From an uncultured Gammaproteobacteria bacterium (GTDB lineage Bacteria > Pseudomonadota > Gammaproteobacteria > Eutrophobiales > Eutrophobiaceae), in NCBI GenBank assembly GCA_951812995.1, contig CATOTD010000003.1, positions 152,825-216,824 of the forward strand: a stretch of DNA of 64,000 nt, in the 5' to 3' direction. Positions within the stretch are counted from its first letter, which is position 1. Every line of letters begins with the position of its first letter. The notes beneath the pieces were generated by a model. It worked only from the letters and a program-made list of their open reading frames with translations. It did no database searches and was not told the DNA's origin. The position numbers and the translations under genes are program-made. This document shows positions 166-56,852 of this stretch, one piece after another.

Positions 166-300
166 CCTGCTACCTTGCCGCCGACAAGGAAGTCAGCCTC
201 GGTCGCGCCTTTGAGGCGGTCATCATCGCCAGCGTTTTTGGGCTTGGCCAAGCCGACCGACCCCTATATTAAAAAAATAGGCCGCACATCAACCGCCCTA
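166..300 (-). repeat. Conserved 3' flank of giant gene 1 (identical copy downstream of gene 2 at 44707..44840)
   Basis: About 135 bp, gccgccgacaaggaagtcagcctcggtcgcgcctttgaggcggtcatcatcgccagcgtttttgggcttggccaagccgaccgacccctatattaaaaaaataggccgcacatcaaccgcc, virtually identical at both loci. It contains the palindrome ggcttggccaagcc. It is non-coding (the best ORF is 18 aa). Confidence 0.7.
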
Positions 301-3300
301 AATCACTGCAAAATAATTGGCGAAATTATCGATAATGTCCTGATGATCAACGTTGTTGAGCGTCATGTAGACCACCGTACCAGCCGTGTTAGTGATATTG
401 GCATGGTCACCGTTATCTGGATTATCTACCACTGCCAGACCCAGGGCGGCCAAGGTGTTCTCAAGGTCAGTCACGGTATCTATTTGAATGCGGTCGTTCT
501 GGCCCGTGTTAAAGTCGGTGATGATGTCGGTGTCTGCGGCCAGCGCATTGGTATCCAGTACAAACCTATCCGCACCCGCACCGCCGGTTAAGGTGTCAAG
601 GAGCACACCGCCCGTGTCGCCCGTGCCGCCGATAAGCGTATCATTGCCATCGCCGCCTTCGAGTGTATCAGCCCCCGCACCGCCGATGAGCATGTCATCA
701 CCCGTGCCGCCAATAAGAACGTCAATGCCCGCGCCGCCGATGAGGGTGTCATTACCCCGGTCGCCAGTAAGATTGTCAATGCCCGCGCCGCCTTCGAGGC
801 GGTTATTACCCCCATCGCCGGTTAAGGTGTCGTCGAAGGCCGAGCCGATGATGTTTTCGATGTTGCGCAAAACATCGCCCTCCGCCCAGCTGCTGCCGAC
901 ACCTGTATTTCCCAAGCTTACTGTCACGCCACTGGCATTGTCGATGGGGGCACCGGCATAACTCACGGTATCAATACCATCGCCGCCGTCAATGGTGTCC
1001 CCACCCGCGCCGCCGTTAAGCAGGTCATTGCCATCACCGCCATACAGCCGATCATTGCCCGCGCCGCCTTCGAGCACGTTGACATCCCCATCGCCAACCA
1101 GTACATCGATATATGCCGAACCAATCAGGTTTTCGATACTGGTGAGTCTATCGCCCGTGGCATCCGTGTTACCACCAGTCTGTGGTGCGCCTACAATATT
1201 GAGATTGACATACACGCCAGTCACGCCCGTGACTTCGGCCGCCAGCCCGTTGCGTGCATCTGCCGCTACGTCATAGTTCGCAACCGCTACCGCTCCCGCA
1301 TACGAGGCCGTATCTATACCATCGCCGCCTTCGAGTAGATCAGCCCCCGCGCCGCCGATGAGCATGTCATCACCCGTGCCGCCAAACAGCCCGTCCCTGC
1401 CCGCGCCGCCGATGAGGGTGTCATTACCCGGGTCGCCTTCAATACTGTCAGTGCCCGCGCCGCCTTCGATGCGGTTGGCATTGGCATCGCCGGTTAAGGT
1501 GTCGCCGAAGGCCGAGCCGATGATGTTTTCGATGTTGCGCAAAACATCGCCCTCCGCCCAGCTACCGCGGCCACTAAAAATTGCCAAGTTTACTTCCACG
1601 CCACTGGCATTGTCGATGGGGGCACCGACATAACTCACGGTATCAATGCCATCGCCGCCGTCAATGGTATCCGCCCCCGCGCCGCCGTTCAGCAGGTCAT
1701 TGCCATCGCCGCCATACAGCCGGTCATTACCCGCGCCGCCTTCGAGCACGTTGGCATTCCCATCACCGACCAGCACATCGATATATGCCGAACCAATCAG
1801 GTTTTCGATACTGGTGAGTCTATCGCCCAGCGCATCAGTCACGGTGTTGTCCGCATCGGTCGTCTGTGCACCAGCCTTGTTTAGATTGACATACACGCCA
1901 GTCACGCCCGTGACTTCGGCCGCCAGCCCGTTGGGTGCATCCGCCGCTACGATATACGCCATACCGGTTGCTGCCGCCGCCGCATACGAGGCGGTATCCA
2001 AGCCCGCGCCGCCATACAGCCGGTCAGCACCCGCGCCGCCTTCGAGTACGTTGGCATTCCCATCACCGACCAGCACATCGATATATGCCGAACCAATCAG
2101 GTTTTCGATACTGGTGAGTGTATCGCCCGCGGCCTCGCTCCCGACTTGTGCACCAGCCTTGTTTAGATTGACATACACGCCAGTCACACCCGTGACTTGG
2201 GCCGCCAGCCCGTTGGGTGCATCCGCCGCTACGATATACGCCATACCGGTTGCTGCCGCATTCGCATACGAGGCGGTATCCAAGCCCGCGCCGCCATACA
2301 GCCGGTCAGCACCCGCGCCGCCTTCGAGTACGTTGGCATCATTATTGCCGACCAGCACATCGATATATGCCGAACCAATCACGTTTTCGATACTGGAGAG
2401 TACATCGCCCCGCGCATCAGTCACCACGGTGTTGGTGGCATTGGTCGTCTGTGCAGTGCCGACCTTGTTTAGATTGACATACACGCCAGTCACGCCCGTG
2501 ACTTCGGCCGCCAGCCCGTTGCGTGCATCTGCCGCTACGATATACGCCATACCGGCTGCTGCCGCATTCGCATACGAGGCCGTATCCAAGCCCGCACCGC
2601 CATACAGCCGGTCAGCACCCGCGCCGCCTTCGAGTACGTTGGCATCATTATTGCCGACCAGCACATCGATATGCGCAGAACCAATCACGTTTTCGATACT
2701 GGAGAGTGCATCGCCCCGCGCATCAGTCACCACGGTGTTGGTGGCATTGGTCGTCTGTGCAGTGCCGACCTTGTTCAGATTGACATACACGCCGGTCACG
2801 CCAGTGACTTGGGCCGCCAGCCCGTTGCGTGCATCTGCCGCTACGATATACGGCGCAACCGCGGCTGCTCCCGCATACGAGGCCGTATCCGTGCCTGCGC
2901 CGCCGATTAAGGTATCCGCATCGCCGCCGCCGCTAAGGTGGTCATTGCCCGCGCCGCCTTCGAGTACGTTGGCATTCCCATCACCGATAAGCACATCGAT
3001 ATATGCCGAACCAATCAGGTTTTCGATACTGGTGAGTCTATCGCCCGTGGCCTCGCTCCCGACTTGTGCGCCAGACTTGTTTAGATTGACATACACGCCG
3101 GTCACGCCCGTGACTTGGGCCGCCAGCCCGTTGGTGGCATCTGCCGCTACGATATACGCCATACCGGTTGCCGCTGCCGCCGCATACGAGGCCGTATCCG
3201 TGCCATCGCCGCCTTCGAGTGTATCAGCCCCCGCACCGCCGATGAGCATGTCATCACCCGTGCCGCCAATAAGAACGTCAATGCCCGCGCCGCCGATGAG

Positions 3301-6300
3301 GGTGTCATTACCCCGGTCGCCAGTAAGATTGTCAATGCCCGCGCCGCCTTCGAGGCGGTTATTACCCCCATCGCCGGTTAAGGTGTCGTCGAAGGCCGAG
3401 CCGATGATGTTTTCGATGTTGCGCAAAACATCGCCCTCCGCCCAGCTGCCGCCGACACCTGTATTTCCCAAGCTTACTGCCACGCCACTGGCATTGTCGA
3501 TGGGGGCACCGGCATAACTCACGGTATCAATACCATCGCCGCCGTCAATGGTGTCCCCACCCGCGCCGCCGTTAAGCAGGTCATTGCCATCACCGCCATA
3601 CAGCCGATCATTGCCCGCGCCGCCTTCGAGCACATTGGCATCCCCATCGCCAACCAGTACATCGTTATGCGCCGAACCAATCAGGTTTTCGATACTGGTG
3701 AGTCTATCGCCCGTGGCATCCGTGTTACCACCAGTCTGTGGTGCGCCTACAATATTGAGATTGACATACACGCCGGTCACGCCCGTGACGCGGGTTGCCA
3801 GCCCGTTGCGTGCATCTGCCGCTACGTCATAGTTCGCAACCGCGGCTACTCCCGCATACGAGGCCGTATCTATACCATCGCCGCCTTCGAGTATATCAGC
3901 CCCCGCACCGCCGATGAGCATGTCATCACCCGTGCCGCCAATAAGAACGTCAATGCCCGCGCCGCCTTCGAGGCGGTTATTACCCCCATCGCCGGTTAAG
4001 GTGTCGTTGAAGGCCGAGCCGATGATGTTTTCGATGTTGCGCAAAACATCGCCCACCGACCAACTGATACCATTAACCTGCCTAGACTGGCTCAAGTTTA
4101 CGAACACGCCATCGGTATTGTCGATGGGGGCACCGACATAACTCACGGTATCAATGCCATCGCCGCCGTCAATGGTGTCCCCACCCGCGCCGCCGTTCAG
4201 CAGGTCATTACCATCGCCGCCGTTAAGCGTATCCGCACCCGTGCCGCCAATAAGAACGTCATTGCCCGCGCCGCCGATGAGGGTGTCATTACCCGCGTTG
4301 CCAGTAAGACTGTCATTGCCCGCGCCGCCTTCGAGGCGGTTGTTACCTCCATCGCCGGTTAAGGTGTCGTCGAAGGCCGAGCCGATGATGTTTTCGATGT
4401 TGGAGAGTGTATCGCCCACCGACCAACTGGTACCATTAACCTGCCTAAACTGGCTCAAGTTTACTGCCACGCCACTGGCATTGTCGATGGGGGCACCGGC
4501 ATAACTCACGGTATCAATACCATCGCCGCCGTCAATGGTGTCCCCACCCGCGCCGCCGTTAAGCAGGTCATTGCCATCACCGCCATACAGCCGATCATTA
4601 CCCGCACCGCCTTCGAGCACGTTGGCATCATTATTGCCGACCAGCACATCGATATGCGCAGAACCAATCAGGTTTTCGATACTGGAGAGTCTATCGCCCA
4701 GCGCATCAGTCACGGTGTTGTCCGCATCGGTCGTCTGTGGGCCGACCTTGGTCAGATTGACATACACGCCAGTCACGCCCGTGACTGTGGCCGTCAGCCC
4801 ATTGGCGGCATCCATTGCCACATTGTACCCCCCCGCCACTGCCGCCACATTCGCATACGAGGCGGTATCTGTACCTGCGCCGCCGTTAAGCGTATCCGCA
4901 CCCGCGCCGCCGCTAAGGTGGTCATTGCCCGCGCCGCCTTCGAGTACGTTGGCATCATTATTGCCGATAAGTACATCAGCTTGCGCCGAGCCGATGACGT
5001 TTTCGATATTGCGCAAGATATCGCCCCGCGCATCAGTCACCACGGTGTTGGTGGCATCGGTCGTCTGTGGGCCGACCTTGTTCAAATTGACATACACGCC
5101 GGTTATGTTTATATCAATCGCCAGCCCGCTATCTGCCGCCGCTACGATATACGCCATACCAGTCGCTGCTGCCGCCGCATACGAGGCGGTATCTGTGCCA
5201 TCGCCGCCGTTAAGCGTATCCGCACCCGCACCGCCTTCGAGGCGGTTGGCATTGGCATCGCCGGTTAGCGTGTCGGCGTGGGTTGAGCCATCGATGTTTT
5301 CGATGTTGAGCAAAATATCGCCTGCCGCCCAGCCGTTGGCGTTCTGCGTATTGTCGGACAAGTTTACCGTAACACCCGCCGATGCCCCGGCATAGCTCAC
5401 GGTGTCGAGGCCGCCCTTGCCATCGATAAGGTCGGCACCCGCGGTGGCATCATAGCTATTATCGGCATCATCGCCAATAGTCGCGCCGCTGTTGAAGTTC
5501 ACGCGGTGTACCGTGGCGGTGGAGTCTAGCCCGTCCGCATCAGTCAAGACGATCGAAAATTCGCGCACGCGGTCGGTGGCGTTTGGCGCATTGGTATTGT
5601 CATAGCGCAAGGCGGCGAGGATGGACTCAACCTCTATAGTCGTTAAGTTGCCGCCAGTCTTGGTGACGGTAATGGTACCGGCACCTGTTGCGGCATCGGT
5701 CTGGCGCCAGGCCAGCGTGAGGCCGGTGATACCGGCAATGGTAACGTTGCTGGCATCGGCATTGGCTGCCGCACCGATGGCGAGGGCCAGGTCCGCGCCC
5801 ATGGCATTGCTACCATAGACCAGTTGTTCGTCCGTGGGGTCGAGGCCGGTGGCGGTAATCGTAATCGTACTTATCGTCGCCGTCAGCGGCAGTTCGATGA
5901 CCTGTACGCCGTCATCCCCATAAGCACTGACCAGGGCGTAGGCACGGCCGTCGATGACCGTGGTCGTGATGTCCTTTGCACCATACAGTGCGGTATTGTC
6001 ACCATCATCAGTAATCGTACCTGCGGGCGTGGGATTCTGCGGGTCGGAGATGTCGATGATCTGTACCCCGTCATCATTCTCGGCGGCGACCAGGGCGTAG
6101 GTCTTGCCAGCGACCACCACCGTGGTGATACCGCTTGCACCATTCAATACGGTAAATGGGCTATTCGCGTCCTGGTTATGATCGACAATCGCGGCCGTGG
6201 GCATGGGATTGTGTGGATCGCTGATGTCGATGATCTGTACCCCGTCATCATTCTCGGCGGCGACCAGGGCGTAGGTCTTGCCAGCGATCACCACCGTGGT

Positions 6301-9300
6301 GATGGCGATTGCACCATCCAGGGCGGTCTTGTCACCATCATCAGTAATCGCGGCCGTGGGCTTGGGATCATCCGGGTCGGAGATGTCGATAATCTGTACC
6401 CCGTCATCATCATAGGCGGCGACCAGCGCGTAGGTCTTGCCGCCCACCACCACCGTGGTGATGGCGTTTGCACCGTCAAGTTCGGTGTAGCCACCTGTAT
6501 CATCGCTAATCGCGGCCGTGGGCGTGGGCGTGGCGGGGTTGGAGATGTCGATAATCTGTACCCCATCATCATCATAGGCGGCGACCAGGACGTAGGTCGC
6601 ATCGCCGATCTTCACCGTAGTGATGCCGCGCGCACCACCGAGCGCGGTGTAAGGCGTATTAGCCCCCACCACCCCCACCATGCTGTCAGTAACCACGGCC
6701 GTGGGCTTGGGCATGGCGGGGTCGGAAATGTTGAGTATCCGTACCCCGTTACTATTATCGGCGGCGATGAGCGCGTAGGTATGCGGCACACCGGTATCTC
6801 GGTCATTAATAACCACCGTGGTGATTGCATATGGGGTAAGCAGTCGGTAGCTGCCATCGTCATCAGTAACTGCGGCCGTGGGCGAGGGATTGTTCGGGTC
6901 GGAAATGTTGAGTATCTGTACCCCGTTATACTCAGAGGAAGTGATCAGGGCGTAGGGAATGCCGCCGATGACCACCGTAGTGATGGACTCTGGAGAATCC
7001 AGCTTGGTGTTGGGATCAAAGTCGTCAATATTGCCCCTTGCCACTGGTGCCGATAAGGCGACCTCATCGCCCGCTGTGGCCTTGGCTCCCAAGACCACAC
7101 CCGCACCCAGTGCCGCATCGTTGACTATGCTGTAGGCAGTTTTAAGTGCCAGGGTCGGCGGGATAGTGTAGATAAAATGATCGTCCGTCAACGCCGCCTC
7201 CACGACCCCGATCAGCGTGATGGTGCCGGTAGGGGTGGTAATGACTGTATTGCCATTGCCATCATCAAGCGTTGCGCCCTGCACAGCTATCAGGTTGGCA
7301 AAGCCAGGAATGGCAGACAGATCGATTTTATTATTACCGGTGTTAAAATCAGTAATGGTGTCATTGCTGTGACCTGCGGCAAAGACAAAGGTATCATCGT
7401 CCGCCCCGCCCGTTAAGGTGTCATCCCCGGCCCCGCCGCTAAGCGTGTCATCCCCGGCCCCGCCGCTAAGCGTGTCATCCCCGGCCCCGCCGCTAAGGTG
7501 GTCATTGCCCGCCCCGCCGTCTAACCGGTTGCCATCATTATTGCCGATAAGCACATCGATATGCGCCGAGCCAATGAGGTTTTCGATATTGAAGAGTACA
7601 TCGCCCGCGGCCTCGCTACCGACTTGTGCGCCGACCTCGTTTAGATTGACATACACACCAGTTACGCCCACAACCGCAGTCGCCAGCCCATAGGCGGGGT
7701 ATGCTGCCACGGTGTACCGCGTCACTGCCACTGCCGCCGCATACGAGGCCGTATCTGTGCCATCGCCGCCGTCCAGCCTATCGGCACCCGCACCGCCGCT
7801 AAGGTGGTCATTGCCATCGCCGCCGTCCAGCCGATTGACCTCAGCATTGCCGATAAGCACATCAGCCTGCGCCGAGCCAATCAGGTTTTCGATATTGGAG
7901 AGTGTATCGTCCGTGGCATCCGTGTTGCCAAGGGTCTGTGCCGTGCCTACCTTGTTCAGATTGACATACACGCCGGTCACACCCGTGACTTCGCCCGCCA
8001 GCCCGTTGGGTAAATCCGCCGCTACGATGTACGACGCAACCGCCACCGCACTGGCATACGAGACGGTATCATCGCCATCGCCGCCGTCCAATGTGTCACC
8101 ACCCGCACCGCCGATAAGCACGTCATCGCCATCGCCGCCGTCCAGGATATCCGCACCCGCACCGCCTTCAAGTCGATTGACATTCGCATCGCCGGTTAGC
8201 GTGTCGGCTTGGGCGGTACCGATGAGGTTTTCGATGTTGAGCAAAACATCGCCCGCCGCCCAGCCGTTGGCGTTCTTGCTATTGTCGGATAAATCCACGG
8301 TCACGCCGTTGCCGTCTGTGACACCGGCATAACTCATGGTGTCCACGCCGCCCCGGCCATCGATAAGGTCGGCGTTGGCGGTGGCGGCGTAGCTAAGGCC
8401 AGCATCATCGCCAATGATCGCGCCGCTGTTGAAGTTCACGCTGTGTACCGTGGCGGTGGAGACGTTACCGTCAAGGTCGGTCAGCACGATCGAAAATTCG
8501 CGCACGCGGTCGGTGGCAGTGTCTGAAGCGGTATTGTCGTAGCGCAAGGCGGCGAGGATGGCCTCGACCTCTATGGTCGTGAGGTTGCTATTGTCGGTCT
8601 TGGTGACGGTAATGGTGTCCTCAGTATTATCCCAGACAATGTTAAGGCCGGTGATACCGGCAATCGTGACATCGCTCAAGCTGGCATCGTCACCGCCAAT
8701 AGCCAGGGCCAGGTCCACGCCCACGGCATTGCTACCATAGACCAGTTGTTCGTTGCTGTTATCCAGGCCGGTGGCGGTAATGGTGATGGTGCTAATGGTC
8801 TCGGTCAGCGGCAGTTCTATGACCTGTACGCTACTATCATCATAGGCACTGACCAGGGCGTAGGCACGGCCGTCTATCACCGTGGTGGTGATGTCCTCTG
8901 CACCATCCAATAAGGTGTTGGCCGCCGCATTAGTAATCGCGGCCACCGCGGTTGGGTTCTCGGGATCAGATATATCAATAATCTGTACCCCATCATCAAC
9001 GTAGGCGGTGGCCAGGGCGTAGGTCTTGCCGGCTATCACCATGGTCGTGATACTGTATACGCTACCCAGTACGAAGCCATTTTGTTTATCGTAAATCGCG
9101 GCCGTGGGCGTGGGATTGTGCGGGTCGGAGATGTCAATAATCTGTACCCCGTCATCATCATTGGCGGCGACCAGCGCGTAGGTCTTGCCTTTGATCACCA
9201 CCGTGGTGATGTCGATTGCACCCAACAGTGCGGTCTTGTCATCATCAGTAATCGCGGCCGTCGGCTTGGGCTTGTGCGGGTCGGAGATGTCAATAATCTG

Positions 9301-36300: not shown

Positions 36301-39300
36301 AATATTGATGAAGATATGCGGCACACCGACCACTGTGACTGCTTCATTAAAGGTAAGCGTGATTTCAATCGGCTCACCGGTATTAAAGGTATTACCTACA
36401 TTTGGACTATTGATGGCAATACCATCTCTATTGACCGATGGGGCCGTGGTGTCGACCTGGTGGGTATTACTGTCTGCCACGAGTCCATGGGCAAGGGTGG
36501 CAGGGTTACCGGCGATGTCGGTAATCGTGCTACCACCGCTTAAGCTAAGCGCATTGGCATTGATACTAATACCGCCCGCATCGGTATCACCGTCTTGTAC
36601 CTCGTATTGGAAGGTCAGCACTCTGCCGCCCGTGCCACTGTGATAACTGGCCAGCTTGGGAGCACCGCCGCCGATGACGATGCCTATGGTTGGCGTGCCG
36701 GTTACAACGACATTCTCGCTAAAGGTCACCGTTATCCTAATAAAATCGCCTGCTATGTAAATGTCATCACCCGCATCAGAGCTAATCGCTGGCACACCCG
36801 TGATAGTCGGGGCCGTGGTGTCTACGCGGTGGGCGTTATTGTCTGCCACGAGTCCATGGGCAAGGGTGGCCGGGTTACCGGCGATGTCGGTAATCGTGCT
36901 ACCACCGCTTAAGCTAAGCGCATCGGCATTGATGCTGATACCATCGGCATCGGTATCACCGGCTTGTACCTCGTATTGGAACACCAACGCGGTGGCGGTA
37001 GAGGAACCGGCTATATAGCTGGCCTGGCGGGTCACACCACCAATGCGAATACCTATTGATGGCGTGCCGGTGACAACAACATCCTCGCTAAAGGTCACCG
37101 TTATCCTAATAAAATCGCCTGCTATGTAAGTATCATCTGCACCCGCATCAGAGCTAATCGCTGGTACACCCGTGATAGTCGGGGGCGTGGTGTCGACCCG
37201 ATGGGCGTTATTGTCTGCCACGAGTCCATGGGTGAGGGTGGCAGGGTTACCGGCGGCATCTTTGATGGTGCCACCGCTTAAGCTAAGCGCATCGGCATTG
37301 ATGCTGATACCATCGGCATCGGTATCACCGTCTTGTACCTCGTATTGGAACACCAACGCGGTGGCGGTAGAGGAACCGGCTATATAGCTGGCCTGGACGG
37401 TGTTGCCGCCGATGACGATGCCGATGGTTGGCGTGCCGGTGACAACAACATCCTCGCTAAAGGTCACCGTTATCCTAATAAAATCGCCTGCTATGTAAGT
37501 ATTATCACCACCCGCATCAGAGCTAATCGCTGGCACACCCGTGATAGTCGGGGCTGTGGTGTCTATGGTCAAGTTAAAGGCCGCACTGGGGACGCCGATT
37601 GCGGTTAAAGCGCCATCGCCATCCACCGCCACCACTTGGGCGGTAAAACTCGGTGTCGCACCATCGGGCAAGGCGGACGGGGTGTACGTCCAGGCCATGC
37701 TGGCACCCAGGGTGGCCGCATCGATCGTGTGCAACAAGGTAACACCATTGTATATCCGTATGACTTCATTGGCTTCCAGCAATGTACTGATGGTGCCGCT
37801 TAAGGTCGGGGTGGTGTCGTTAGTGGTATTGCCGCTGACCAAGTCGTCTTGCACGGGGTCAACATTATCCTCGGCAGCATCTATGGTGACGGTGGTGTTC
37901 AGTCGCGGTAATTGCGCATCGACCTGTTTATTGGAGTCGGCAGCAACGGTTGTATGGGCAAGGGTGGCATCATTACCGGCGGTATCTTTGATTGTGGCAC
38001 CGTTTAATACAATGTCGGTGGTCGTGATGCTGATGCCATTGTCATCCTTGTCGCCGACCACGGGGCTGTAGCTAAAAACCAGTTGGGTGGTGCCATTGCC
38101 ACTTTCATAGTCGGCCTGTTTGTTCGTGCCGCCAATATTGATGAAGATATGCGGCACACCGACCACTGTGACTGCTTCATTAAAGGTAAGCGTGATTTCA
38201 ATCGGCTCACCGGTATTAAAGGTATTACCTACATTTGGACTATTGATGGCAATACCCGTTACCGATGGGGGCGTGGTGTCGATGGTGATGGGGGCGGCAT
38301 TGCTGCCGACATCAACCGACCTATTACCGGCCGCATCGGTTTGGCGGACTTGTATATGACCTGCGTTATAGGTGGTGTTGGCGGTGCCAAGGCTGAAGGT
38401 GGTGCCCGTGCCGTCTTGCCAGACGGGCGTGCCATCATTGCCATTGATTGTATATTCCCAGGTCGCACCCGCTTCAAGACCCGTGACCGTGATGGTCGGG
38501 TTGCTGGTGATGCCGTCATCAGCGGCCGTGTCGGTAAAGGTGATCTCCGGGTTATCCGGGGGCGTGGTGTCTATGGTGATGGGGGCGGTGCTGCTGCCCA
38601 CGCCAGATACATTACCCGCCACATCGGTCTGGCGTACCTGTATATCACCTCGCACGTAGGTGGTGTTGGCGGTGCCGAGGCTGAAGGTGTTGCCCGTGCC
38701 GTCTTGCCAGACGGGCGTGCCATCATTGCCATTGATTGTATACTCCCAGGTCGCACCCACTTCAAGACCCGTGACCGTGACAGTCGGGTCGTTGGTGCGG
38801 TTGTCACCTGCTGTGCCTGTGTCGGTAAAGGCGATACCCGGGGGCAAGGCCTCGGTGTCGATGGTGATGACCTGGTCGTATTGATAGATGGACTCATTAC
38901 CGGCCGTGTCGGTTTGTTTTATGCGGATAGTATTGGCGTTATAGGTCTTATTGGCGTTGCCAAGGCTGAAGGTACCGTTGCCGCCTGCACCCACCACACC
39001 GCCACCGGTAAACGTGCCGCCATCGATTGAATACGCCCAGGTCGCACCCACTTCAAGGTTTGCGACATTGATGCTCGGGTTATTGGTGATGCGGTCATCA
39101 TCAGCCGTGCCCGTGTCGCGGGTCAAGGCTACTCTCGGATCATCCGGGGGCGTGGTGTCGATGGTTATGGCTCGGTCGTATGTATAGATGGACTCATTAC
39201 CGGCCGTGTCGGTTTGTTTTATGCGGATAGTATTGGCGTTATAGGTCTTATTGGCGTTGCCAAGGCTGAAGGTACCGTTGCCGCCTGCACCCACCACACC

Positions 39301-42300
39301 GCCACCGGTAAACGCGCCGCCATCGATTGAATACGCCCAGGTCGCACCCACTTCAAGGTTTGCGACATTGATGCTCGGGTTATTGGTGATGCGGTCATCA
39401 TCAGCCGTGCCCGTGTCGCGGGTCAAGGCTACTCTCGGATCATCCGGGGGCGTGGTGTCGATGGTTATGGCTCGGTCGTATGTATAGATGGACTCATTAC
39501 CGGCCGTGTCGGTTTGTTTTATGCGGATAGTATTGGCGTTATAGGTCTTATTGGCGTTGCCAAGGCTGAAGGTACCGTTGCCGCCTGCACCCACCACACC
39601 GCCACCGGTAAACGTGCCGCCATCGATTGAATAGGCCCAGGTCGCACCCACTTCAAGGTTTGCGACATTGATGCTCGGGTTATTGGTGATGCGGTCATCA
39701 TCAGCCGTGCCCGTGTCGCGGGTCAAGGCTACGGTCGGATCATCCGGGGGCGTGGTGTCGATGGTGATGGCCTGGTCGTATGTATAGATGGACTCATTAC
39801 CGGCCGTGTCGGTTTGTTTTATGCGGATAGTATTGGCGTTATAGGTCTTATTGGCGTTGCCAAGGCTGAAGGTACCGTTGCCGCCTGCACCCACCACACC
39901 GCCACCGGTAAACGCGCCGCCATCGATTGAATACGCCCAGGTCGCACCCACTTCAAGGTTTGCGACATTGATGCTCGGGTTATTGGTGATGCGGTCATCA
40001 TCAGCCGTGCCCGTGTCGCGGGTCAAGGCTACTCTCGGATCATCCGGGGGCGTGGTGTCGATGGTTATGGCTCGGTCGTATGTATAGATGGACTCATTAC
40101 CGGCCGTGTCGGTTTGTTTTATGCGGATAGTATTGGCGTTATAGGTCTTATTGGCGTTGCCAAGGCTGAAGGTACCGTTGCCGCCCACTGCTACCGTGCC
40201 GACTTCGGTAAACGTGCCGCCATCGATTGAATAGGCCCAGGTCGCACCCACTTCAAGGTTTGCGACATTGATGCTCGGGTTGCTGGTGATGCGGTCATCA
40301 GCAGCCGTGCCCGTGTCGCGGGTCAAGGCTACGGTCGGATCATCCGGGGGCGTGGTGTCGATGGTTAAGGTAAAGGCATCACTGCGGTCGCCGACTGCGG
40401 TTAAAGCGCCATCGCCATCCACCGCCACCACTTGGGCGCGAAAACTCGGTGTCGCACCATCGGCCAAGGCGGACGGGGTGTACGTCCAGGCTTGGCTACC
40501 GGCGACGGTAATGGTCGCCGTGCCGAGTAATACGCCATTGTTGTATATCCGTACCTCTTGATTAGTGGCGGCATCTAGTGGCGCACTGATGGTGCCGCTT
40601 AAGGTCGGGGTGGTGTCGTTAGTGGTATTGCCGCTGACCAAGTCGTCTTGCACGGGGTCAACATTATCCTCGGCAGCGTCTATGGTGGCGGTGGTGACCA
40701 GTCGCGGTAATTGCGCATCGACTTGTTTAGTGAGGTCGGGGCCAACGGTTGTATGGGCAAGATTGGCATCATTACCGGCCGTGTCTTTGATTGTGGCACC
40801 GTTTAATACAATGTCGGTGGTCGTGATGCTGATGCCATTGTCATCGCTGTCGCCGACCACGGGGCTGTAGCTAAAAACCAGTTGGGTGGTGCCATTGCCA
40901 CTTTCATAGTCGGCCTGTTTGTTCGTGCCGCCAATATTGATGAAGATATGCGGCACACCGACCACTGTGACTGCTTCATTAAAGGTAAGCGTGATTTCAA
41001 TAGGCTCACCGGTATTAAAGGTATTGCCTACATTTGGACTATTGATGGCAATACCATCTCTATTGACCGATGGGGCCGTGGTGTCGATGGTGATGGGGGC
41101 GGCATTGCTACCGACATCGACCGACGTATTACCGACCGCATCGGTCTGGCGGACTTGTATATGACCTTGCGCGTAGGTGTTGTCGTCGGTGCCAAGGCTG
41201 AAGGTGGTGCCCGTGCCATCGTCCCAATTACTGCCGTCATCCGTTGAATACTCCCAGGTCGCACCATCTTCAAGACCCGTGATCGTGATGGTCGGGTTGC
41301 TGGTGATGCCGTCATCAGCGGCCGTGTCGGTAAAGGTGATCTCCGGGTTATCCGGGGGCGTGGTGTCGACCCGATGGGTGTTACTGTCTACTACCGCACC
41401 ATGGGTGAGAGTGGCATTGTTACCCGCGATGTCGGTAATCGTGCCACCGTTTAAGTCAAGATTGCCCCGAACAATACTAATACCGCCCGCATCGTTGTCA
41501 CCGGCTTGTACCTCGTATTGGAATACCAGCTCGGTGGTGCCATTGCCACTTTCATAGCTGGCTTGGCGGGGGTTGCCACCCATGTTGATGCTGATGGTTG
41601 GCGTGCCCGTTACGATGACATCCTCATCAAAAGTTACCGTTATCTTAATAACATCGCCTGCCTTGTAAGTATTATCCGTACCGGCATTAGAGCTAATCGC
41701 TGGCACACCCGTGATAGTCGGTGCCGTGGTGTCTATGGTAATCAACGTGGTCGTGCCCACGCGTGATCTATTACCGGCCGCATCAGTTTGCCGTACCTGT
41801 ATCGCACCCGCTTCGTAGCTGGGGTTGGTTAGCTCAAAGCTCGTACCCGTGCCTGGGTTCCAGTTCGTGCCGCTGTCTGTTGAATACTCCCAAGTGGCAC
41901 CATCTTCAATGTTTCTAACCGTCATCGTCGGATCGGAAGTAATACCATCAGCGATGTTAGTGTCATCGGCCAAGGCCAGACCAGGTGCCGATGGCGCGCG
42001 GGTGTCGATGGTCAAGGTAAAGGTGGCGGGGACACCAAAGGTGTTGCTGTCTGTATTGACTACCTGAACGCGATAGCTGGCAGTCGCACCATGACCCAAG
42101 GCCGGGGTTTGTGTGTATGTCCAGTTCTGACCATCTACGGTGGCCGTGCCGAGTAATACGCCATTGTTGTAAACTTGTACGACTTCATTGGTGGCCAGGT
42201 CTACGCTAATGGTACCGCTTAAGGTCGGGGTGGTGTCATTGGTGGTATTGCCAGTGTCTAAATCCGTTGGGGAAGCAAGTACGTCCGCGGCATTGCTGCC

Positions 42301-44490
42301 AACATTATCCGCAGCTCCTGTAATCTGGACGGTCGTGGTGATCACATCCGCCGTGGTCGTGGTGTCAACCGCCTTAGTCGCATCGGCGGCAACGGCATCA
42401 TGGGTGAGGATGGCAGGGTTACCCGCGATGGTGGTGGCATCATTCCCCGCGATGTCTTGGATGGTGCCGCCGTTTAAGTTAAGACTGTTCTCGGCAATAC
42501 TGATGCCGCCCGGGGTATCATCACCGGTTTGTACCTGGTATTGGAACACCAACGTCTTGCTGCCCGTGCCGCTTTTATAGTCGGCCTGGACGGTATTGCC
42601 GCCGATGACGATGCCTATCCATGGCGTGCCGGTGACAACAACATCCTCACTAAAAGTCACTGTGATGGTGATGACCTCATTCGCCACAAACGCTGTGCCT
42701 GAGGCTGGATTGCTAATGGTCACCGTGCTGATGGTTGGGGGCGTGTCGTCAACAGTCAGTTCAATATCGGGCTCACCATTACCGTCATCATCGGCTATAC
42801 CTGCTTCCTCCGCACCATCCTCCAGACGCTTGGCAGCATCAGGCGACAAGCCCTCTTCAGTTATTTCATCTACCAAGTCTTCCAGGACTTCGCCCGTTGT
42901 TTTTGACTCGCCTCCTCTTACACCCGATTCTACACCCGAAATGGCCGCCAGTGCCTTGCCGTATTCGTTGGCGGCATCGTCACCCGTCGTTGGCTTGCCG
43001 TCTTTATCCACTGTCAGCTTGACCGGGCTCGATACCAGGTCATCAGCATCGGCTGTGTCATCATCACCCGTGATACCAAAGGACTTGGCTACCGCGGCCT
43101 GTTGCGCGACAACGGCTTCGGGAGTGATGTCCGTGATGCTGGTTGCAGAGGCACCGTTATCACCACCGGCAAGACCAACCTTGCGCGTGGCAAGCTCGGT
43201 TAAAGAATTGATGTTGACCGTCTTGGTTGCACCCGCTGCCGGGGCCTGGGTAATCACCCGCAAGTCGCTGGTCAAGTCTTTATCTGCATTCGTTGCTTCG
43301 TCTCGATAGTCGGCGGCGGCATTCTCGTCTACGACCTTAATCAGGATAAGGCCGTCATAGGCGCGGGTGATGGTGACCGTGTAGGTGCCATCATCATTGA
43401 CCTTGGTCGTGCCGAGTGCTGTGCCATCGGCCGCATACACGGTCACTTCCAGACCATGGCCAGCAATCACTGGACCGGCCGTGACAGTGCCGCTTACGGT
43501 AAAGCCGGGGACGGTCTCGGTCTCGGTGGACGTGACGGTTTTGGTAAAACCCTTAGCATCAGTGTAGGTGACGGCAACCCGTAGCTGCTGGCCTTGGTCA
43601 GTACTAGCGACAGTGTAAGTGGCTTGGTCCGCACCCGTGATAGGGTTCCAGGTGTTGCCATTGGTGGAGCGTTGCCATTGATAGCTAAACTCGCCATCCC
43701 CATTGCCATCGGGGTCGTCGGTGGCCGTGGTAGCTGTGAGTTGTTGACCGACTGCCGGGGTGCCGTCTATCGCAAAGGTCGCATCGCCACTATTCCCGGC
43801 CGCTTTACTGCTGTCGCTACTCCCACCGCCCGAGACGGCGAAACCGACCGCACCCAGTAAGGCCACGGCACCCGCTAATCCCGCACTACGATCGAGGCCG
43901 CCATCACTGCTTGTAGTTGCCGTTTCAGCACTTGTGTCGCTGGCTACTGCTTCGGCGGTCGTCTCGGCCACTGCTTCGGTTGTCGTCTCGGCCGTGGCGG
44001 TTGCTTGGGCGGTCGTCTCGGTCGCGGCGGCTTCTTGGGCCGCTGTTGCTGCTACTATCTCTTGGCCAAGTTGCTGATTCAATATATCTTCAAGCTCGCT
44101 GTTGCCTGTAGCCAATGCCAGCAGTGCTTGCAACGCACCTTGGTCATGGGCCTGGGCATAGATAAAGATACTGCCGTCACTCAAGGCCGTACCCTGGGTG
44201 GCGGGGGTGATGACATACTCGCCATTGTCATCTGCGCTGTCTTGATGATGCGGCAAGGCGACCTGGCAGGATGTCGCATCATCAACACAGACCGTGTAGA
44301 AGTCTTCAAGAATGACGACCGTACCATCGGCGTATTGCAGAACCAAGTCGTCACCTTCACGCATGACCAGGACATTGGCCTTGAGCGTGAGATTGTCTAT
44401 ATCGCTGATACGGTACTGATGACCCGCTTCGGTCTGGATGCGGTTGGTATTACCGTTTATGGGGTTGATGATGACGGGTTTAGTTGGCAC
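298..44490 (-). CDS. Giant T1SS-type repetitive adhesin (14,730 aa): Bap-like N-terminal prefix domain, Ig-like domain array, 8 x [RTX beta-roll / T1SS-C-term-like domain / LVIVD beta-propeller / linker domain] supermodules, C-terminal secretion domain
   Basis: Single uninterrupted 44,193-nt ORF on the minus strand. GTG start at 44490 with GGAGA 7 nt upstream, and the N-terminus is parallel to the paralog ([10 protein letters not shown] vs MSSKPVVINP). The N-terminus has a ...[22 protein letters not shown]... motif typical of Bap/LapA-like prefix domains. There are many GGAGxDTLxGG nonapeptides, and repeats of the [20 protein letters not shown] type matching the LVIVD repeat family. The C-terminus ...DRFVLD...[19 protein letters not shown]...NYFAVI* resembles the VCA0849-type T1SS C-terminal domain. 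Stop is TAG at 298-300. Confidence 0.9.
300..31300 (-). repeat. Eight tandem coding supermodules (2.4-4.3 kb each): RTX nonapeptide block(s) + FxF(T/A)PGHGxDTIxDF..KIDLS domain + 7-8-blade LVIVD-type propeller + [14 protein letters not shown] linker domain
   Basis: The [14 protein letters not shown]-containing domain recurs 8 times in the translated protein, at about nt 5630, 8570, 10990, 15240, 19570, 22690, 26300 and 28880. Large near-identical DNA blocks recur, e.g. identical antisense ORFs at 11118..11339 and 19719..19940 (offset 8601 bp). Confidence 0.7.
301..585 (-). other. C-terminal T1SS-type secretion/targeting domain of the 14,730-aa protein (last ~95 aa)
   Basis: [38 protein letters not shown]...[10 protein letters not shown] at the extreme C-terminus. 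The same sequence, ending DYFSVI, closes the paralog (44840..45125). The pattern matches RTX/VCA0849-type uncleaved C-terminal secretion signals. Confidence 0.5.
34752..36420 (-). repeat. Copy A of a perfectly identical ~1.67-kb direct repeat (tandem period 1833 bp, equal to 611 codons)
   Basis: Antisense ORFs 34762..35079, 34928..35185, 35339..35554, 35500..35775, 35708..36238 and 36171..36377 are each letter-for-letter identical to ORFs shifted by exactly +1833 nt. The sequence diverges upstream of about 34750 and downstream of about 36420. Confidence 0.8.
36585..38253 (-). repeat. Copy B of the perfectly identical ~1.67-kb direct repeat
   Basis: Same as copy A, shifted by +1833 nt. A more diverged third copy lies at about 32.6-34.4 kb. 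Confidence 0.8.
38870..40370 (-). repeat. Five tandem 300-bp (100-codon) near-identical coding repeats (Ig-like domain units)
   Basis: Identical 60-aa antisense ORFs at 38919, 39219, 39519 and 39819. The sequence block gatggactcattaccggccgtgtcggtttgttttatgcggatag recurs at 38888, 39188, 39488, 39788 and 40088. Confidence 0.8.
44161..44490 (-). other. N-terminal Bap/LapA-like prefix (retention-type) domain, ~110 aa, conserved between both giant proteins
   Basis: [14 protein letters not shown]...[39 protein letters not shown]... is about 75% identical to residues 1-110 of the paralog (coded at 55040..55372). The DDLVL...DG..V.I.DF(Y/F) pattern is characteristic of prefix domains of T1SS giant adhesins, as far as I recall. 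Confidence 0.45.
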
Positions 44491-44660
44491 GGGTGTTCTC
44501 CATGATGCTTGATTATTAAATAAGTTTAATGGCTAACATGTTTGGTAACTTAACTGCCCTTAATGATGCTACAGCTATCGCTTGTCTGTCAATAGACAAT
44601 CTTTGTGATTAGACAACAATACTGAGGCGGGCGGTCGCCCACTGATGACACGGCTTCAAG
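44491..44660 (-). promoter_or_regulatory. Conserved leader/promoter block upstream of giant gene 1
   Basis: About 85% identical to 55373..55545 upstream of gene 2 (gtttaat.gctaacatgtttggt ... gcccttaatgatgctacagctat.gcttg.ctgtcaa.agacaa.ctttg..att..acaacaatactgaggcgggc.gtcgcc). On the coding strand it contains a TTGACA hexamer. GGAGA RBS before the GTG. Confidence 0.4.
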
Positions 44661-44706
44661 CAAGGTCTGTAGGCAAACTTTATATCCTTGCTACCTTGCT
44701 ACCTTG

Positions 44707-44840
44707 CTATCTGCCAGCCGCCGACAAGGAAGTCAGCCTCGGTCGCGCCTTTGAGGCGGTCATCATCGCCAGCGTTTTTGGGCTTGGCCAAGCCGACCGA
44801 CCCCTATATTAAAAAATAGGCCGCACATCAACCGCCTTAA
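44707..44840 (-). repeat. Conserved 3' flank of giant gene 2 (copy of 166..300)
   Basis: See the 166..300 feature. It is preceded by a ccttgcta x3 direct repeat at about 44688..44712. Confidence 0.7.
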
Positions 44841-55803: not shown

Positions 55804-56852
55804 TTTATTGGCTCAGAGAGGTTAAAAAAACCAATTTGATCCAAAAAGCCGGTAGTGTCCGTACAGCCCTGTTCTCGGCTTTACTTCGTTTTCAAGACGC
55901 ACTGACCCGTTCCAGAAAGCATAAACGCCTCATGTTGTACCTTAGATTCATCAAGCCGATATGCATGTTTGTGCGCGTAATGCCAATGCAAGGAACCGCT
56001 TTGCGGTGTAAATTGCGCTGTGCTCCAAACACAGGTTCGACCCGACTACGAACTTTGGAGCGCGTGCGCTTACCTTGCGCCTTGAGAAACGCTACTTTTT
56101 CCTCTGACCGATAGGCACTGTCAGCCCAGACATCTTTACTGGTATTGCTGTCATCTGGCAGGTCGGCAAAAACCTGCGCGTCATGGACGCTGGCATCAGT
56201 GACCTGATAGTCACGAATCAACTTGTTGTCATGGTCTATCTGGCTGTGGTTCTTGTAAGCAAAATGGCGGCAGCTATGTTTCTTCGTCCAGCGGACAGGG
56301 ACAGCGCCTGCCTTAATCCGTGCATTGTCTTCCCAACGGTTACGCGGCAACAGTGCCGGAATGATCGAGGAGGCAACTATCTGACCCTTGCGAGTGATAT
56401 AAGCCGCCTGGTTCAACGACAACTGCTCAAACAACGATGCCATCAGACCCAGCGCCGCTAACCGATGCTTGAATGCCCAGCAGGTTTTGGTATCAGCGAC
56501 TCGTTGCTGCCTAGCAAGACCCAGAAACTGCTGAAAACTGCAACGGTCTTCGATTTGGTATTCCAACTGAGCATCGCTAAGACCATACAGATTTTGCACA
56601 AGCAGTCCCTTGAACATCATCACTACGTTTGTTGGGCGTTGCCCGCCTGACGCTTACGTTGTTTCTCATGAACCTTGTTCAACAACGACCGAAAAGATCC
56701 CCAGTCAACCGTCTTTTCCAGTTCAGGCAGAGGATTACCCAACTGTTTGAGACGATAGTCTTGAAGATTAAACAGAGAACCGAAAATGTCATTGCTCATG
56801 GAAGTTTCTTTGTCAGTTTGGAAACTTCAACATTGTACCAAATAGAGTCATT
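55786..56852 (-). mobile_element. IS5-family insertion sequence (~1.07 kb) nested inside the IS256 transposase gene
   Basis: It splits the IS256 Tnp between ...IRKAIKKRKG and LFPTDDATRK.... It is flanked by ATTAAT/TTAA at 55782-55787 and 56850-56855 and by short inverted tctattaatg motifs. It carries an IS5-family DDE transposase. Confidence 0.55.
55892..56799 (-). pseudogene. IS5-family DDE transposase (~301 aa) with an in-frame TAG after codon 58
   Basis: N-terminal MSNDIFGSLFNLQDYRLKQLGNPLPELEKTVDWGSFRSLLNKVHEKQRKRQAGNAQQT, then TAG, then in the same frame VMMFKGLLVQNLYGLSDAQLEYQIEDRCSFQQFLGL...IVASSIIPA...ADSAYRSEE.... These are typical IS5/IS4-superfamily motifs. Confidence 0.7.

What the first reader, a model, noticed from the sequence alone, without database searches (positions are those of the whole stretch)
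298..44490. A single 44.2-kb ORF encoding a ~1.5-MDa (14,730 aa) secreted repeat protein
A 44-kb uninterrupted ORF cannot arise by chance. It has a credible RBS and start, a Bap-like N-terminal prefix domain and a T1SS-type C-terminal secretion domain. Its modules are fully coherent end to end. At this length it would rank among the largest bacterial proteins on record (from memory). A T1SS substrate of this size is at the extreme of what LapA/SiiE/IBP-type systems export.
Basis: partly seen in the sequence, partly recalled or inferred. Interest (0 to 1): 0.75.

Follow-up and report, generated by a model that had tools for sequence, protein, structure and literature searches.

The report
Giant 1.47-MDa RTX surface protein gene
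The 44-kb open reading frame is real and encodes a 14,730-residue calcium-binding repeat protein, most likely exported by a type I secretion system and held on the cell surface as an adhesin; it sits at the top of the known size range for such proteins but does not exceed it, and its interior has an unusual layout.

Summary
Observation confirmed. One uninterrupted ORF runs 298..44490 on the MINUS strand (14,730 aa, 1,473,677 Da, pI 4.05). It has a GTG start and a GGAGA RBS, and its start position matches that of its paralogue and relatives. The chance of no stop is about 1e-233.

Layout, N- to C-terminus:
- a 140-aa N-terminal domain holding the protein's only two cysteines
- a low-complexity linker, a hydrophobic Gly/Ala/Leu segment and a Gly/Ser-rich stretch
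- about 36 Ig-like domains (about 4,150 aa)
- eight cassettes of [RTX block, cap domain, 7-bladed LVIVD propeller, ~110-aa domain]
- a 1,550-aa RTX tail and a conserved C-terminal domain

The T1SS reading is supported mainly by context. In distant relatives that share the N-terminal domain, the gene directly follows a TolC / LssB-type ABC / HlyD operon (14 of 18 loci). No T1SS gene lies in this window.

The BapA-prefix match and the terminal TIGR03661 match are both below cut-off. Six of the eight INTERNAL caps, however, pass the TIGR03661 cut-off.

The size is not a record. Larger bacterial proteins are known (85,804 aa), and RTX adhesins are described up to about 15,000 aa (MpIBP is 1.5 MDa).

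One 1,672-bp perfect tandem repeat leaves the Ig copy number unverified. A 3,511-aa paralogue lies immediately upstream.

The parts
298..44490 (-). Giant CDS: 14,730 codons plus stop. GTG start at 44490-44488, stop at 300-298.
44563..44592 (-). Sigma-70-like promoter candidate (TTGACA-18-CATCAT), about 70 nt upstream of the start. It lies inside the ~150-nt leader that is 86% identical to the leader of paralogue P2.
   Evidence: Consensus match only.
44497..44501 (-). Ribosome-binding site GGAGA, 6 nt before the GTG.
   Evidence: read directly from the sequence
44071..44490 (-). N-terminal domain (aa 1-140). It contains the only two Cys of the protein (C68, C75). The domain defines a family of 159 representatives among 1.84 billion proteins, nearly always at the N-terminus of large proteins.
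   Evidence: (AF2 pLDDT 86)
43885..44070 (-). Low-complexity Ala/Thr/Glu linker (aa 141-202).
43834..43884 (-). Hydrophobic Gly/Ala/Leu segment [17 protein letters not shown] (aa 203-219, Kyte-Doolittle 2.1), followed by a Gly/Ser-rich stretch. A comparable hydrophobic window (KD>1.6) is present in 74 of 106 family members, and many of those are followed by poly-Gly.
31351..43803 (-). Extender of about 36 Ig-like beta-sandwich domains (aa 230-4380). It holds about 18 copies of one ~100-aa type, about 9 of a second type, 4 of a ~120-aa type, and singletons. Part of it forms a 611-aa, 5-domain super-repeat present 4 times.
   Evidence: (Big_13, Big_6)
34752..38256 (-). Two 1,672-bp perfectly identical tandem copies (34752-36423 and 36585-38256). 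This is the one place where repeat copy number cannot be trusted without long reads.
30682..31350 (-). First RTX block (aa 4381-4603).
28531..30693 (-). Cassette 1 (aa 4600-5320): cap domain (30436-30681), 7-bladed LVIVD propeller, ~110-aa alpha/beta domain, and the start of the next RTX block.
25954..28104 (-). Cassette 2 (aa 5463-6179); cap at 27850-28092 (TIGR03661 19.5 bits).
22339..24480 (-). Cassette 3 (aa 6671-7384); cap at 24217-24468 (19.1 bits).
19222..21384 (-). Cassette 4 (aa 7703-8423); cap at 21121-21372 (18.2 bits).
14893..17094 (-). Cassette 5 (aa 9133-9866); cap at 16837-17085 (18.5 bits).
10636..12783 (-). Cassette 6 (aa 10570-11285); cap at 12520-12771 (18.6 bits).
8212..10284 (-). 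Cassette 7 (aa 11403-12093); cap at 10021-10272 (14.5 bits, below cut-off).
5284..7404 (-). Cassette 8 (aa 12363-13069); cap at 7147-7395 (18.2 bits).
631..5283 (-). RTX-only tail (aa 13070-14620): nonapeptide repeats punctuated by IENxxGS motifs.
   Evidence: CyaA RTX domain E 4.5e-60
301..630 (-). C-terminal domain (aa 14621-14730) ending ...[18 protein letters not shown]. It is nearly identical in relative P0138 and conserved in P2, P0126, P0129 and P0130. It is a weak homologue of the internal caps and the presumed secretion signal.
280..294 (-). Terminator-like hairpin plus T-run directly after the stop. The same element follows the P2 stop at 44819-44833, within a ~120-nt duplicated 3' flank.
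44837..55372 (-). Paralogue P2 (3,511 aa, 359 kDa). It has the same N-terminal domain, Cys pair, hydrophobic segment, Ig region, two cassettes and C-terminal domain.

Best explanation
The ORF encodes a giant, calcium-dependent RTX protein of the adhesin type that is exported by a type I secretion system (ABC transporter, HlyD adaptor, TolC channel).

Inferred mechanism:
1. The unfolded chain is threaded through the channel C-terminus first.
2. The C-terminal domain and RTX tail fold on meeting extracellular Ca2+.
3. Each of the eight interior RTX blocks, which carries its own cap domain, then folds in turn. This gives periodic anti-backsliding ratchet points along the 10,000-residue distal part.
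4. The eight LVIVD propellers, closest in fold to the protein-binding EPTP propeller of LGI1, form a multivalent binding region.
5. About 36 Ig-like domains form a stalk that holds this region away from the cell.
6. The N-terminal domain, the only part with cysteines, together with the following hydrophobic and Gly-rich segment, remains at the envelope and anchors the protein.

Shown here: the ORF, the domain map, the folds, the conservation of both ends across a family, and the T1SS operon linkage of the N-terminal domain in relatives.

Inferred: export of this particular protein, retention on the surface, the ratchet role of the caps, and ligand binding by the propellers.
For: - RTX repeats: 80 Pfam HemolysinCabind stretches and 165 nonapeptide motifs. 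The C-terminal 250 aa match the CyaA RTX domain at E 4.5e-60 and the C-terminal domains of secreted proteases and lipases at about 1e-10 to 1e-11.
- T1SS-substrate hallmarks: pI 4.05, 1,943 acidic vs 488 basic residues, 2 Cys in 14,730 residues, and no N-terminal signal-peptide-like sequence.
- Family behaviour: the close relatives examined (1,237-7,882 aa) keep the N-terminal domain, and four of them also keep the same C-terminal domain, while the interior varies. Each has exactly 2 Cys.
- Context: in 14 of 18 metagenomic loci with upstream sequence, the gene carrying this N-terminal domain directly follows, on the same strand, genes for an OEP/TolC-family protein, an ABC transporter and a HlyD-family protein. 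Pfam confirmed this in three loci. The ABC matches LssB-type TIGR03375 over its full length (583-638 bits), and HlyD TIGR01843 scores 309 bits against a 209 cut-off.
- Cassettes: AF2 gives a 7-bladed propeller (core pLDDT above 90). The best PDB matches are LGI1 EPTP propellers (E 1e-14, TM 0.80-0.83). Caps occur exactly 8 times, always before a propeller, and 6 of 8 pass the TIGR03661 cut-off.
- Literature: the general RTX-adhesin plan is anchor, extender, ligand-binding region, then RTX plus signal, and substrates fold only outside the cell in Ca2+ (PMC5550230; bioRxiv 10.1101/2025.09.30.679566).
Against: - No ABC, HlyD or TolC gene lies in the 64-kb window, and only 297 nt lie downstream of the gene.
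- The T1SS-linked relatives are distant (31-44% identity in the N-terminal domain). The three examined lack RTX repeats and have a different C-terminus.
- The terminal domain is below the TIGR03661 cut-off (13.4 vs 17.6 bits).
- No retention-module or LapG-site evidence was found. The N-terminal fold has no significant solved counterpart.
- The hydrophobic segment is not a feature reported for the MpIBP anchor (PMC5550230).
- No expression data exist.
- LVIVD propellers have no experimentally known ligand.
Confidence: 0.72

Rival explanations
1. Assembly artefact. The 44-kb ORF is a collapsed, expanded or chimeric concatenation of repeats, and the true gene has a different length or is split.
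For: A 1,672-bp perfect tandem duplication lies in the Ig region. RTX adhesins are known to be mis-assembled from short reads (bioRxiv 10.1101/2025.09.30.679566). The sequencing technology is unknown. Codon usage shifts sharply next to IS fragments at 56-59 kb, so a chimeric contig join there cannot be excluded.
Against: Apart from that one repeat, exact repeats are 412 bp or shorter, and copies are 50-80% identical at protein level, so most of the gene has unique sequence. All repeat offsets are in frame. There is no N and no frame break in 44 kb. The contig is 417 kb. Independent assemblies hold relatives of 7,882 and 7,883 aa with the same N-terminal domain. A mis-count would change only the number of Ig domains, not the nature of the gene.
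Confidence: 0.12
2. It is a released exoprotein (toxin, S-layer-like or matrix protein), or a polyprotein cut into propeller-bearing units, rather than a cell-anchored adhesin.
For: No retention-module HMM or structural match was found, and no LapG/LapD genes are in the window. The internal caps keep the features of true C-termini, including an acidic-plus-hydrophobic end (...DDFIY), and resemble the real C-termini of relatives P0127 and P0135.
Against: A conserved folded N-terminal domain followed by a Gly-rich segment and a long Ig stalk is the layout of anchored RTX adhesins (PMC5550230). No protease domain or known cleavage motif was detected by Pfam or NCBIfam. T1SS signals are understood to act at the extreme C-terminus (background knowledge).
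Confidence: 0.13
3. It is a silent or decaying horizontally acquired gene that is not expressed.
For: GC3 is 0.64, against 0.39-0.42 in the three neighbouring housekeeping genes. IS5 and IS3 fragments lie at the boundary. No T1SS genes are adjacent.
Against: 44 kb without a single stop or frameshift argues for selection or very recent origin. The RBS, the promoter-like and terminator-like elements and the start are conserved between the two paralogues. Giant genes typically differ in oligonucleotide usage from the bulk genome (statement quoted in PMC11573180).
Confidence: 0.03

Closest known systems
MpIBP, the 1.5-MDa RTX adhesin of Marinomonas primoryensis (PMC5550230)
   Same: Essentially the same mass. 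The overall plan matches: N-terminal anchor region, very long Ig-like Ca2+-dependent extender, distal binding region, C-terminal RTX beta-roll plus T1SS signal. T1SS export.
   Different: MpIBP gets its size from about 120 identical 104-aa Ig repeats. Here the Ig stalk is only about 28% of the protein, and about 70% is RTX plus eight LVIVD propeller cassettes. The N-terminal domain found no significant match anywhere in the PDB search (best Foldseek E 0.13). This protein also has a hydrophobic segment that the MpIBP anchor is reported to lack.
LapA (Pseudomonas fluorescens) / SiiE (Salmonella) type T1SS giant adhesins
   Same: Acidic, Cys-poor, Ig-repeat stalk, C-terminal RTX and signal. In relatives the partner ABC transporter is of the LssB type with an N-terminal extension.
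   Different: No retention-module HMM hit was found, and no demonstrable LapG di-alanine site or LapD/LapG genes. The protein is much larger (14,730 aa against, from memory, about 5,000-8,700 aa). Propeller cassettes are absent from LapA and SiiE.
CyaA RTX domain (blocks with C-terminal capping structure), Bordetella
   Same: Multiple RTX blocks. The C-terminal 250 aa align to CyaA RTX at E 4.5e-60. The idea that a C-terminal cap nucleates Ca2+-driven folding of a block comes from background knowledge of CyaA block V.
   Different: CyaA is a 1,706-aa toxin with five contiguous blocks. Here each capped block is separated from the next by a propeller, and there is no toxin, acylation or pore-forming domain.
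LVIVD-repeat (PF08309) surface proteins, and the EPTP propeller of LGI1
   Same: A 7-bladed propeller of ~54-58-aa blades. 488 database proteins share the repeat. The closest solved fold is LGI1 EPTP.
   Different: Most listed homologues are 400-1,060-aa proteins. Only a few also carry RTX repeats (for example P0066 and P0116-P0122). An array of eight propellers, each preceded by a capped RTX block, was not seen among them.
BapA prefix-like domain (PF22783 / NF033677)
   Same: Shares the short motif ...R.GDDLVL.YADGT.V.I..FY... at the N-terminus of a giant repeat protein.
   Different: Scores are below both curated cut-offs, and only about 28 of 123 profile positions align.

Membership tests
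RTX protein family (T1SS-secreted Ca2+-binding proteins) | Gly/Asp-rich nonapeptide repeats (GGxGxDxUx) | tested here: met
   Pfam PF00353: 587.5 and 714.5 bits in two chunks, 80 stretches in all. 165 regex nonapeptides. CyaA RTX E 4.5e-60.
RTX protein family (T1SS-secreted Ca2+-binding proteins) | Uncleaved C-terminal secretion signal | tested here: inconclusive
   TIGR03661 scores 13.4 bits against a 17.6 cut-off on the true C-terminus. However, the last ~110 aa are conserved across family members, align to the C-terminal parts of serralysin, ZapA and PueAB, and end in hydrophobic residues (YFAVI).
RTX protein family (T1SS-secreted Ca2+-binding proteins) | Cognate ABC transporter, membrane-fusion protein and TolC-type channel | tested here: inconclusive
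   None in the window. Present immediately upstream of distant relatives' genes in 14 of 18 loci. The rest of the source genome could not be retrieved.
RTX protein family (T1SS-secreted Ca2+-binding proteins) | Acidic, cysteine-poor polypeptide without an N-terminal signal peptide | tested here: met
   pI 4.05, 2 Cys in 14,730 aa. The N-terminus [19 protein letters not shown]... has no hydrophobic h-region.
RTX adhesins (LapA / MpIBP / SiiE type) | N-terminal retention module (periplasmic plug) | tested here: not met
RTX adhesins (LapA / MpIBP / SiiE type) | Long extender of tandem Ig-like beta-sandwich domains | tested here: met
   Big_13 95.7 bits, 7 stretches. In-house HMMs find about 36 domains over aa 230-4380.
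RTX adhesins (LapA / MpIBP / SiiE type) | Distal ligand-binding region with split domains carrying ligand-binding domains | tested here: inconclusive
   No known ligand-binding domain (PA14, vWA, peptide-binding) was reported. Eight LVIVD propellers occupy the distal region instead. Split-domain topology was not examined.
RTX adhesins (LapA / MpIBP / SiiE type) | Surface retention regulated by a LapG/LapD-type protease and c-di-GMP receptor | not testable with these tools
BapA prefix-like domain (PF22783 / NF033677) | Score at or above the curated cut-off of the family model | tested here: not met
   PF22783 18.4 vs 27 bits. NF033677 22.3 vs 35 bits. 12 of 24 family members reach E<=0.01, best 4.9e-05.
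LVIVD repeat beta-propeller (PF08309) | Repeat model above cut-off and a propeller fold | tested here: met
   76.7 and 50.5 bits against a 20.2 cut-off. AF2 gives a 7-bladed propeller with core pLDDT above 90. LGI1 EPTP TM 0.80-0.83.
T1SS C-terminal target domain, VCA0849 subclass (TIGR03661) | Domain at the extreme C-terminus scoring at or above 17.6 bits | tested here: not met
   The true C-terminus scores 13.4 bits. Six of eight internal caps score 18.2-19.5 bits, so the domain type is present but in internal positions.

The most novel reading that the evidence does not exclude
The eight internal 'cap' domains are working copies of a T1SS C-terminal target/capping domain. Six pass the TIGR03661 cut-off, and they resemble the real C-termini of relatives. 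Spaced every ~700-1,400 residues, they may be what lets a type I system export a 1.5-MDa chain. Each capped RTX block would fold in extracellular Ca2+ and lock the chain against back-sliding, or would re-engage the transporter. Giant T1SS substrates could then grow by end-to-end fusion of secretion-competent cassettes. A more extreme version is that the protein is a polyprotein cut after ...DDFIY into propeller units.
Probability: 0.2. Interest if true: 0.7.

Novelty: new variant of a known kind. Interest (0 to 1): 0.45.

Why it matters
This is a concrete, fully in-frame example of a T1SS-type substrate at the upper size limit described for the class (about 15,000 aa). Its bulk comes from repeated [capped RTX block + propeller] cassettes rather than from identical Ig repeats.

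That layout bears on an open mechanistic question: how does a type I system, which has no periplasmic intermediate, move and fold a megadalton chain?

The work also delimits an unannotated N-terminal domain family with a conserved Cys pair, a hydrophobic Gly/Ala/Leu segment and a Gly-rich stretch. In relatives this domain is genetically coupled to LssB-type T1SS operons, yet it does not match known retention modules. It is therefore a candidate alternative anchoring device.

If none of this holds up, the finding is still a well-characterised member of the giant RTX adhesin class.

Tried and rejected
1. Source genome and downstream flank. Exact look-ups show P2 and the flanking proteins are singletons on one 417-kb NCBI/ENA contig, but the look-up of encoding contigs had no record for P0004, P0001 or P0005. 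The giant protein itself is too long for the look-up tools.

The 79 loci returned are generic RTX proteins with no N-terminal domain or propeller. This was a poor query choice on my part.

3. The search for homologous proteins with aa 1-300 returned one hit and missed even P2, probably because of the low-complexity linker. The profile query A1 returned only six small fragments. The exhaustive HMMER search was the useful one.

4. The organism could not be identified. Cluster look-ups carry no names. There was no tRNA or Rfam hit and no plasmid match to the IS region. The only hint is a gammaproteobacterial-type CCA enzyme (PRK10885, 628 bits).

5. The afdb50 fold library was unavailable.

6. 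A literature search for '14730 aa' found nothing relevant.

7. I considered and rejected the large ORFs on the opposite strand (up to 623 aa). They are shadow ORFs of a GC-rich repeat gene: no independent evidence supports them, and they lie wholly inside the 14,730-codon frame.
Full report
OBSERVATION

The window contains one uninterrupted ORF at 298..44490 on the minus strand, 14,730 codons long with a GTG start. There are no ambiguous bases, and the translation has only its terminal stop. Given the ORF's own base composition, a stop is expected every ~28 codons, so the probability of 14,730 stop-free codons is about 1e-233. The other five frames of the same region carry 211-1,108 stops.

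The start is well supported. GGAGA lies 6 nt upstream of the GTG, and an in-frame stop lies 15 codons upstream. The paralogue and the closest relatives begin at the equivalent residue (MSSKPVVINP... and [10 protein letters not shown]...).

The predicted product is 1,473,677 Da with a pI of 4.05. It has 1,943 Asp+Glu against 488 Lys+Arg, and only two cysteines.

IS IT AN ASSEMBLY ARTEFACT?

At DNA level the longest perfect repeat is 1,672 bp, a tandem pair with a period of 1,833 bp (611 codons) at 34752-38256. The next longest exact repeats are 412 bp or shorter. All intragenic repeat offsets are multiples of three. Most repeat copies are only 50-80% identical at protein level, so most of the gene is effectively unique sequence.

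Relatives of 7,882 and 7,883 aa with the same N-terminal domain occur in two other assemblies. I conclude that the ORF is real. Only the copy number of one five-domain Ig super-repeat needs long-read confirmation.

ANATOMY (N- to C-terminus)

(i) N-terminal domain, aa 1-140. AlphaFold2, run with a 24-sequence family alignment, gives a confident mostly-beta model (pLDDT 86, pTM 0.82). It contains both cysteines of the protein (C68 and C75; C75 is invariant in the alignment).

(ii) Linker and hydrophobic segment. An Ala/Thr/Glu low-complexity linker is followed by a 17-residue hydrophobic Gly/Ala/Leu segment ([17 protein letters not shown], Kyte-Doolittle 2.1) and a Gly/Ser-rich stretch. A comparable hydrophobic window is present in 74 of 106 family members, and many of those are followed by poly-Gly.

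(iii) Ig-like extender, aa ~230-4380. It holds about 36 Ig-like domains of at least three sub-types (Pfam Big_13 and Big_6).

(iv) Cassette region, aa 4381-13069. Eight cassettes each consist of an RTX block, an ~84-aa cap domain, a propeller of LVIVD repeats, and a ~110-aa alpha/beta domain. AlphaFold2 on one cassette gives a 7-bladed, four-stranded-blade propeller with core pLDDT above 90. Its closest solved folds are the EPTP propellers of human LGI1 (E 1e-14, TM 0.80-0.83 normalised to target).

(v) RTX tail, aa 13070-14620, made only of RTX repeats.

(vi) C-terminal domain, the last 110 aa, ending ...[18 protein letters not shown].

Pfam finds 80 HemolysinCabind stretches. The C-terminal 250 aa match the CyaA RTX domain at E 4.5e-60.

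THE TANDEM PARALOGUE

Immediately upstream on the same strand lies a 3,511-aa paralogue (P2, 44837..55372). It has the same N-terminal domain, Cys pair, hydrophobic segment, Ig region, two cassettes and C-terminal domain.

The two genes also share about 150 nt of 5' leader (86% identity) and the last ~105 codons plus about 120 nt of 3' flank (87% identity). The shared flank includes a terminator-like hairpin directly after each stop. A promoter-like element lies ahead of the giant gene. The giant gene therefore appears to be its own transcription unit and arose by tandem duplication followed by internal expansion.

HOW IT MOST LIKELY WORKS

The window contains no secretion genes. Upstream of P2 lie IS5 and IS3 fragments, a CCA-adding enzyme, UppP and a methyltransferase, and only 297 nt lie downstream of the giant gene.

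The strongest evidence for type I secretion comes from relatives. An exhaustive HMMER search shows the N-terminal domain defines a small family of 159 representatives among 1.84 billion proteins. It sits almost always at residues ~20-140 of large proteins.

Scanning metagenome contigs with the family profile gave 38 loci. In 14 of the 18 with enough upstream sequence, the gene carrying the domain directly follows a three-gene block on the same strand: ~457 aa, ~748 aa (with Walker A and ABC signature) and ~430 aa.

Pfam identifies these three genes, in three loci tested, as an outer-membrane efflux protein (TolC family), an ABC transporter and a HlyD-family adaptor. NCBIfam places the ABC in the LssB-type T1SS permease/ATPase family over its full length (583-638 bits, just under the 693 cut-off). 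The adaptor falls in the T1SS HlyD family above cut-off (309 vs 209 bits).

These relatives are distant (31-44% identity). The three examined lack RTX repeats and have a different C-terminus. The linkage therefore belongs to the N-terminal domain, not to the RTX part.

The remaining evidence points the same way. The protein is acidic, nearly Cys-free and without a signal peptide. It carries RTX blocks, and both ends are conserved around a variable interior in close relatives. Type I secretion is the best-supported route.

By analogy with established RTX-adhesin biology, the chain would exit C-terminus first and fold outside the cell in Ca2+. Substrates stay unfolded until they are outside, and only the N-terminal module folds without Ca2+ and plugs the channel (PMC5550230; bioRxiv 10.1101/2025.09.30.679566). 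The N-terminal domain would remain at the envelope.

THE INTERNAL CAPS

The ~84-aa cap that ends each interior RTX block (...[29 protein letters not shown]...ITL.G....L..DDFIY) occurs exactly eight times in the giant protein and twice in P2. It is always directly N-terminal to a propeller.

Six of the eight caps score above the curated cut-off of TIGR03661, the T1SS C-terminal target domain (18.2-19.5 vs 17.6 bits). They align to the extreme C-terminal end of T1SS substrates such as PueAB (positions 514-616 of 616). They also resemble the real C-termini of family members P0127 (which scores 19.9 bits) and P0135.

The giant protein's own C-terminal domain is a weak homologue of the caps (hmmsearch i-E 0.0019; 3.8e-05 in P2). 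It scores only 13.4 bits on TIGR03661.

My inference is that these caps are folding nuclei for each RTX block, as described for CyaA block V (background knowledge). They would provide periodic ratchet points along the 10,000-residue distal region. Whether they also act as internal secretion signals is untested.

- 'T1SS C-terminal domain': sub-threshold at the terminus, as described above.
- 'Among the largest bacterial proteins': not so. Proteins of 85,804 aa (predicted), 39,678 aa (detected by proteomics) and 36,805 aa are documented (bioRxiv 10.1101/2023.11.21.568195). RTX adhesins are described as 1,500-15,000 aa, and MpIBP is 1.5 MDa. The protein is at the top of its class, not beyond it.

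COMPARISON AND NOVELTY

Functionally, the protein most resembles MpIBP-, LapA- and SiiE-type RTX adhesins. It meets the RTX, Ig-extender and composition criteria. It does not meet the retention-module or BapA-prefix tests. Its T1SS partner genes could not be examined.

It differs from the known adhesins in three ways:
- About 70% of its mass is RTX plus eight propeller cassettes, rather than identical Ig repeats.
- It carries internal T1SS-target-like caps.
- Its N-terminal anchor candidate has a conserved Cys pair and a hydrophobic Gly/Ala/Leu segment.

LVIVD proteins are common (488 hits) and a few of them carry RTX repeats, but none of the homologues listed is built like this. The exact sequences of P2 and the neighbours are already in NCBI/ENA, unnamed.

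I class the finding as a new variant of a known kind, of moderate interest.

LIMITS

The organism, the sequencing technology, expression, export, retention and ligand are all unknown.

The codon usage of both giant genes differs sharply from the three adjacent housekeeping genes (GC3 0.64-0.65 against 0.39-0.42). This is consistent with horizontal acquisition, or with the known compositional oddity of giant genes (PMC11573180). A chimeric contig join at the IS fragments cannot be excluded.

Noticed in passing
window 44837-55372 (- strand): A second giant gene (3,511 aa, 359 kDa) lies in tandem directly upstream. It is a paralogue with the same two ends and two RTX-cap-propeller cassettes. The ~150-nt 5' leader and ~120-nt 3' flank are duplicated with it.
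   Followed up: yes
window 56000-64000 vs 298-55372: Codon usage shifts sharply. GC3 is 0.64-0.65 in the two giant genes and 0.39-0.42 in cca (59038-60243), uppP (60240-61040) and a Methyltransf_28 gene (61290-62594). For example, Thr ACC is 56% vs 17% and Ser AGC is 44% vs 9%. This suggests a horizontally acquired island, or possibly a chimeric contig join.
   Followed up: partly
window 55892-56623 and 58086-58753 (- strand): Truncated IS5-family transposase (matches positions 37-214 of 285 of NF033581, just under cut-off), plus two small overlapping ORFs with IS3-like HTH_Tnp_1 and HTH_21 domains. These degraded insertion sequences sit exactly at the compositional boundary. In relatives, the position immediately upstream of the substrate gene holds a T1SS operon.
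   Followed up: partly
window 7147-30681 (eight sites) and 47057-50485 (two sites in P2): Internal cap domains score above the curated cut-off of the T1SS C-terminal target model (TIGR03661), while the true C-terminus does not. The caps resemble the real C-termini of relatives P0127 and P0135.
   Followed up: yes
window 43834-43884 (aa 203-219), and equivalent positions in relatives: A hydrophobic, glycine-zipper-like segment followed by a Gly-rich stretch lies just after the N-terminal domain. A comparable hydrophobic window is present in 74 of 106 family members, and many of those are followed by poly-Gly. The MpIBP anchor is reported to lack a transmembrane sequence (PMC5550230). Its role (channel-spanning linker or membrane anchor) is unexplained.
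   Followed up: partly
window 44680-44715 (- strand, intergenic): A short tandem repeat (gcaaggta x3) lies in the intergenic region between the P2 terminator and the giant gene's promoter-like element.
   Followed up: no
window 1646-3517, 11017-12696, 5824-7056 and other sites (+ strand): Long antisense ORFs (up to 623 aa) lie inside the giant genes. They are shadow ORFs of a GC-rich repeat gene and nothing supports them as genes.
   Followed up: partly
relatives P0127, P0129, P0130, P0138 (one 2.04-Mb ENA contig): A related organism encodes at least four paralogues of this family (7,882, 4,846, 3,784 and 1,237 aa) on one contig. Each has exactly two Cys. The family is therefore multi-copy, with highly variable interiors.
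   Followed up: partly
window 63076-63700 (- strand): Two overlapping small ORFs (105 and 122 aa) have no Pfam match.
   Followed up: no
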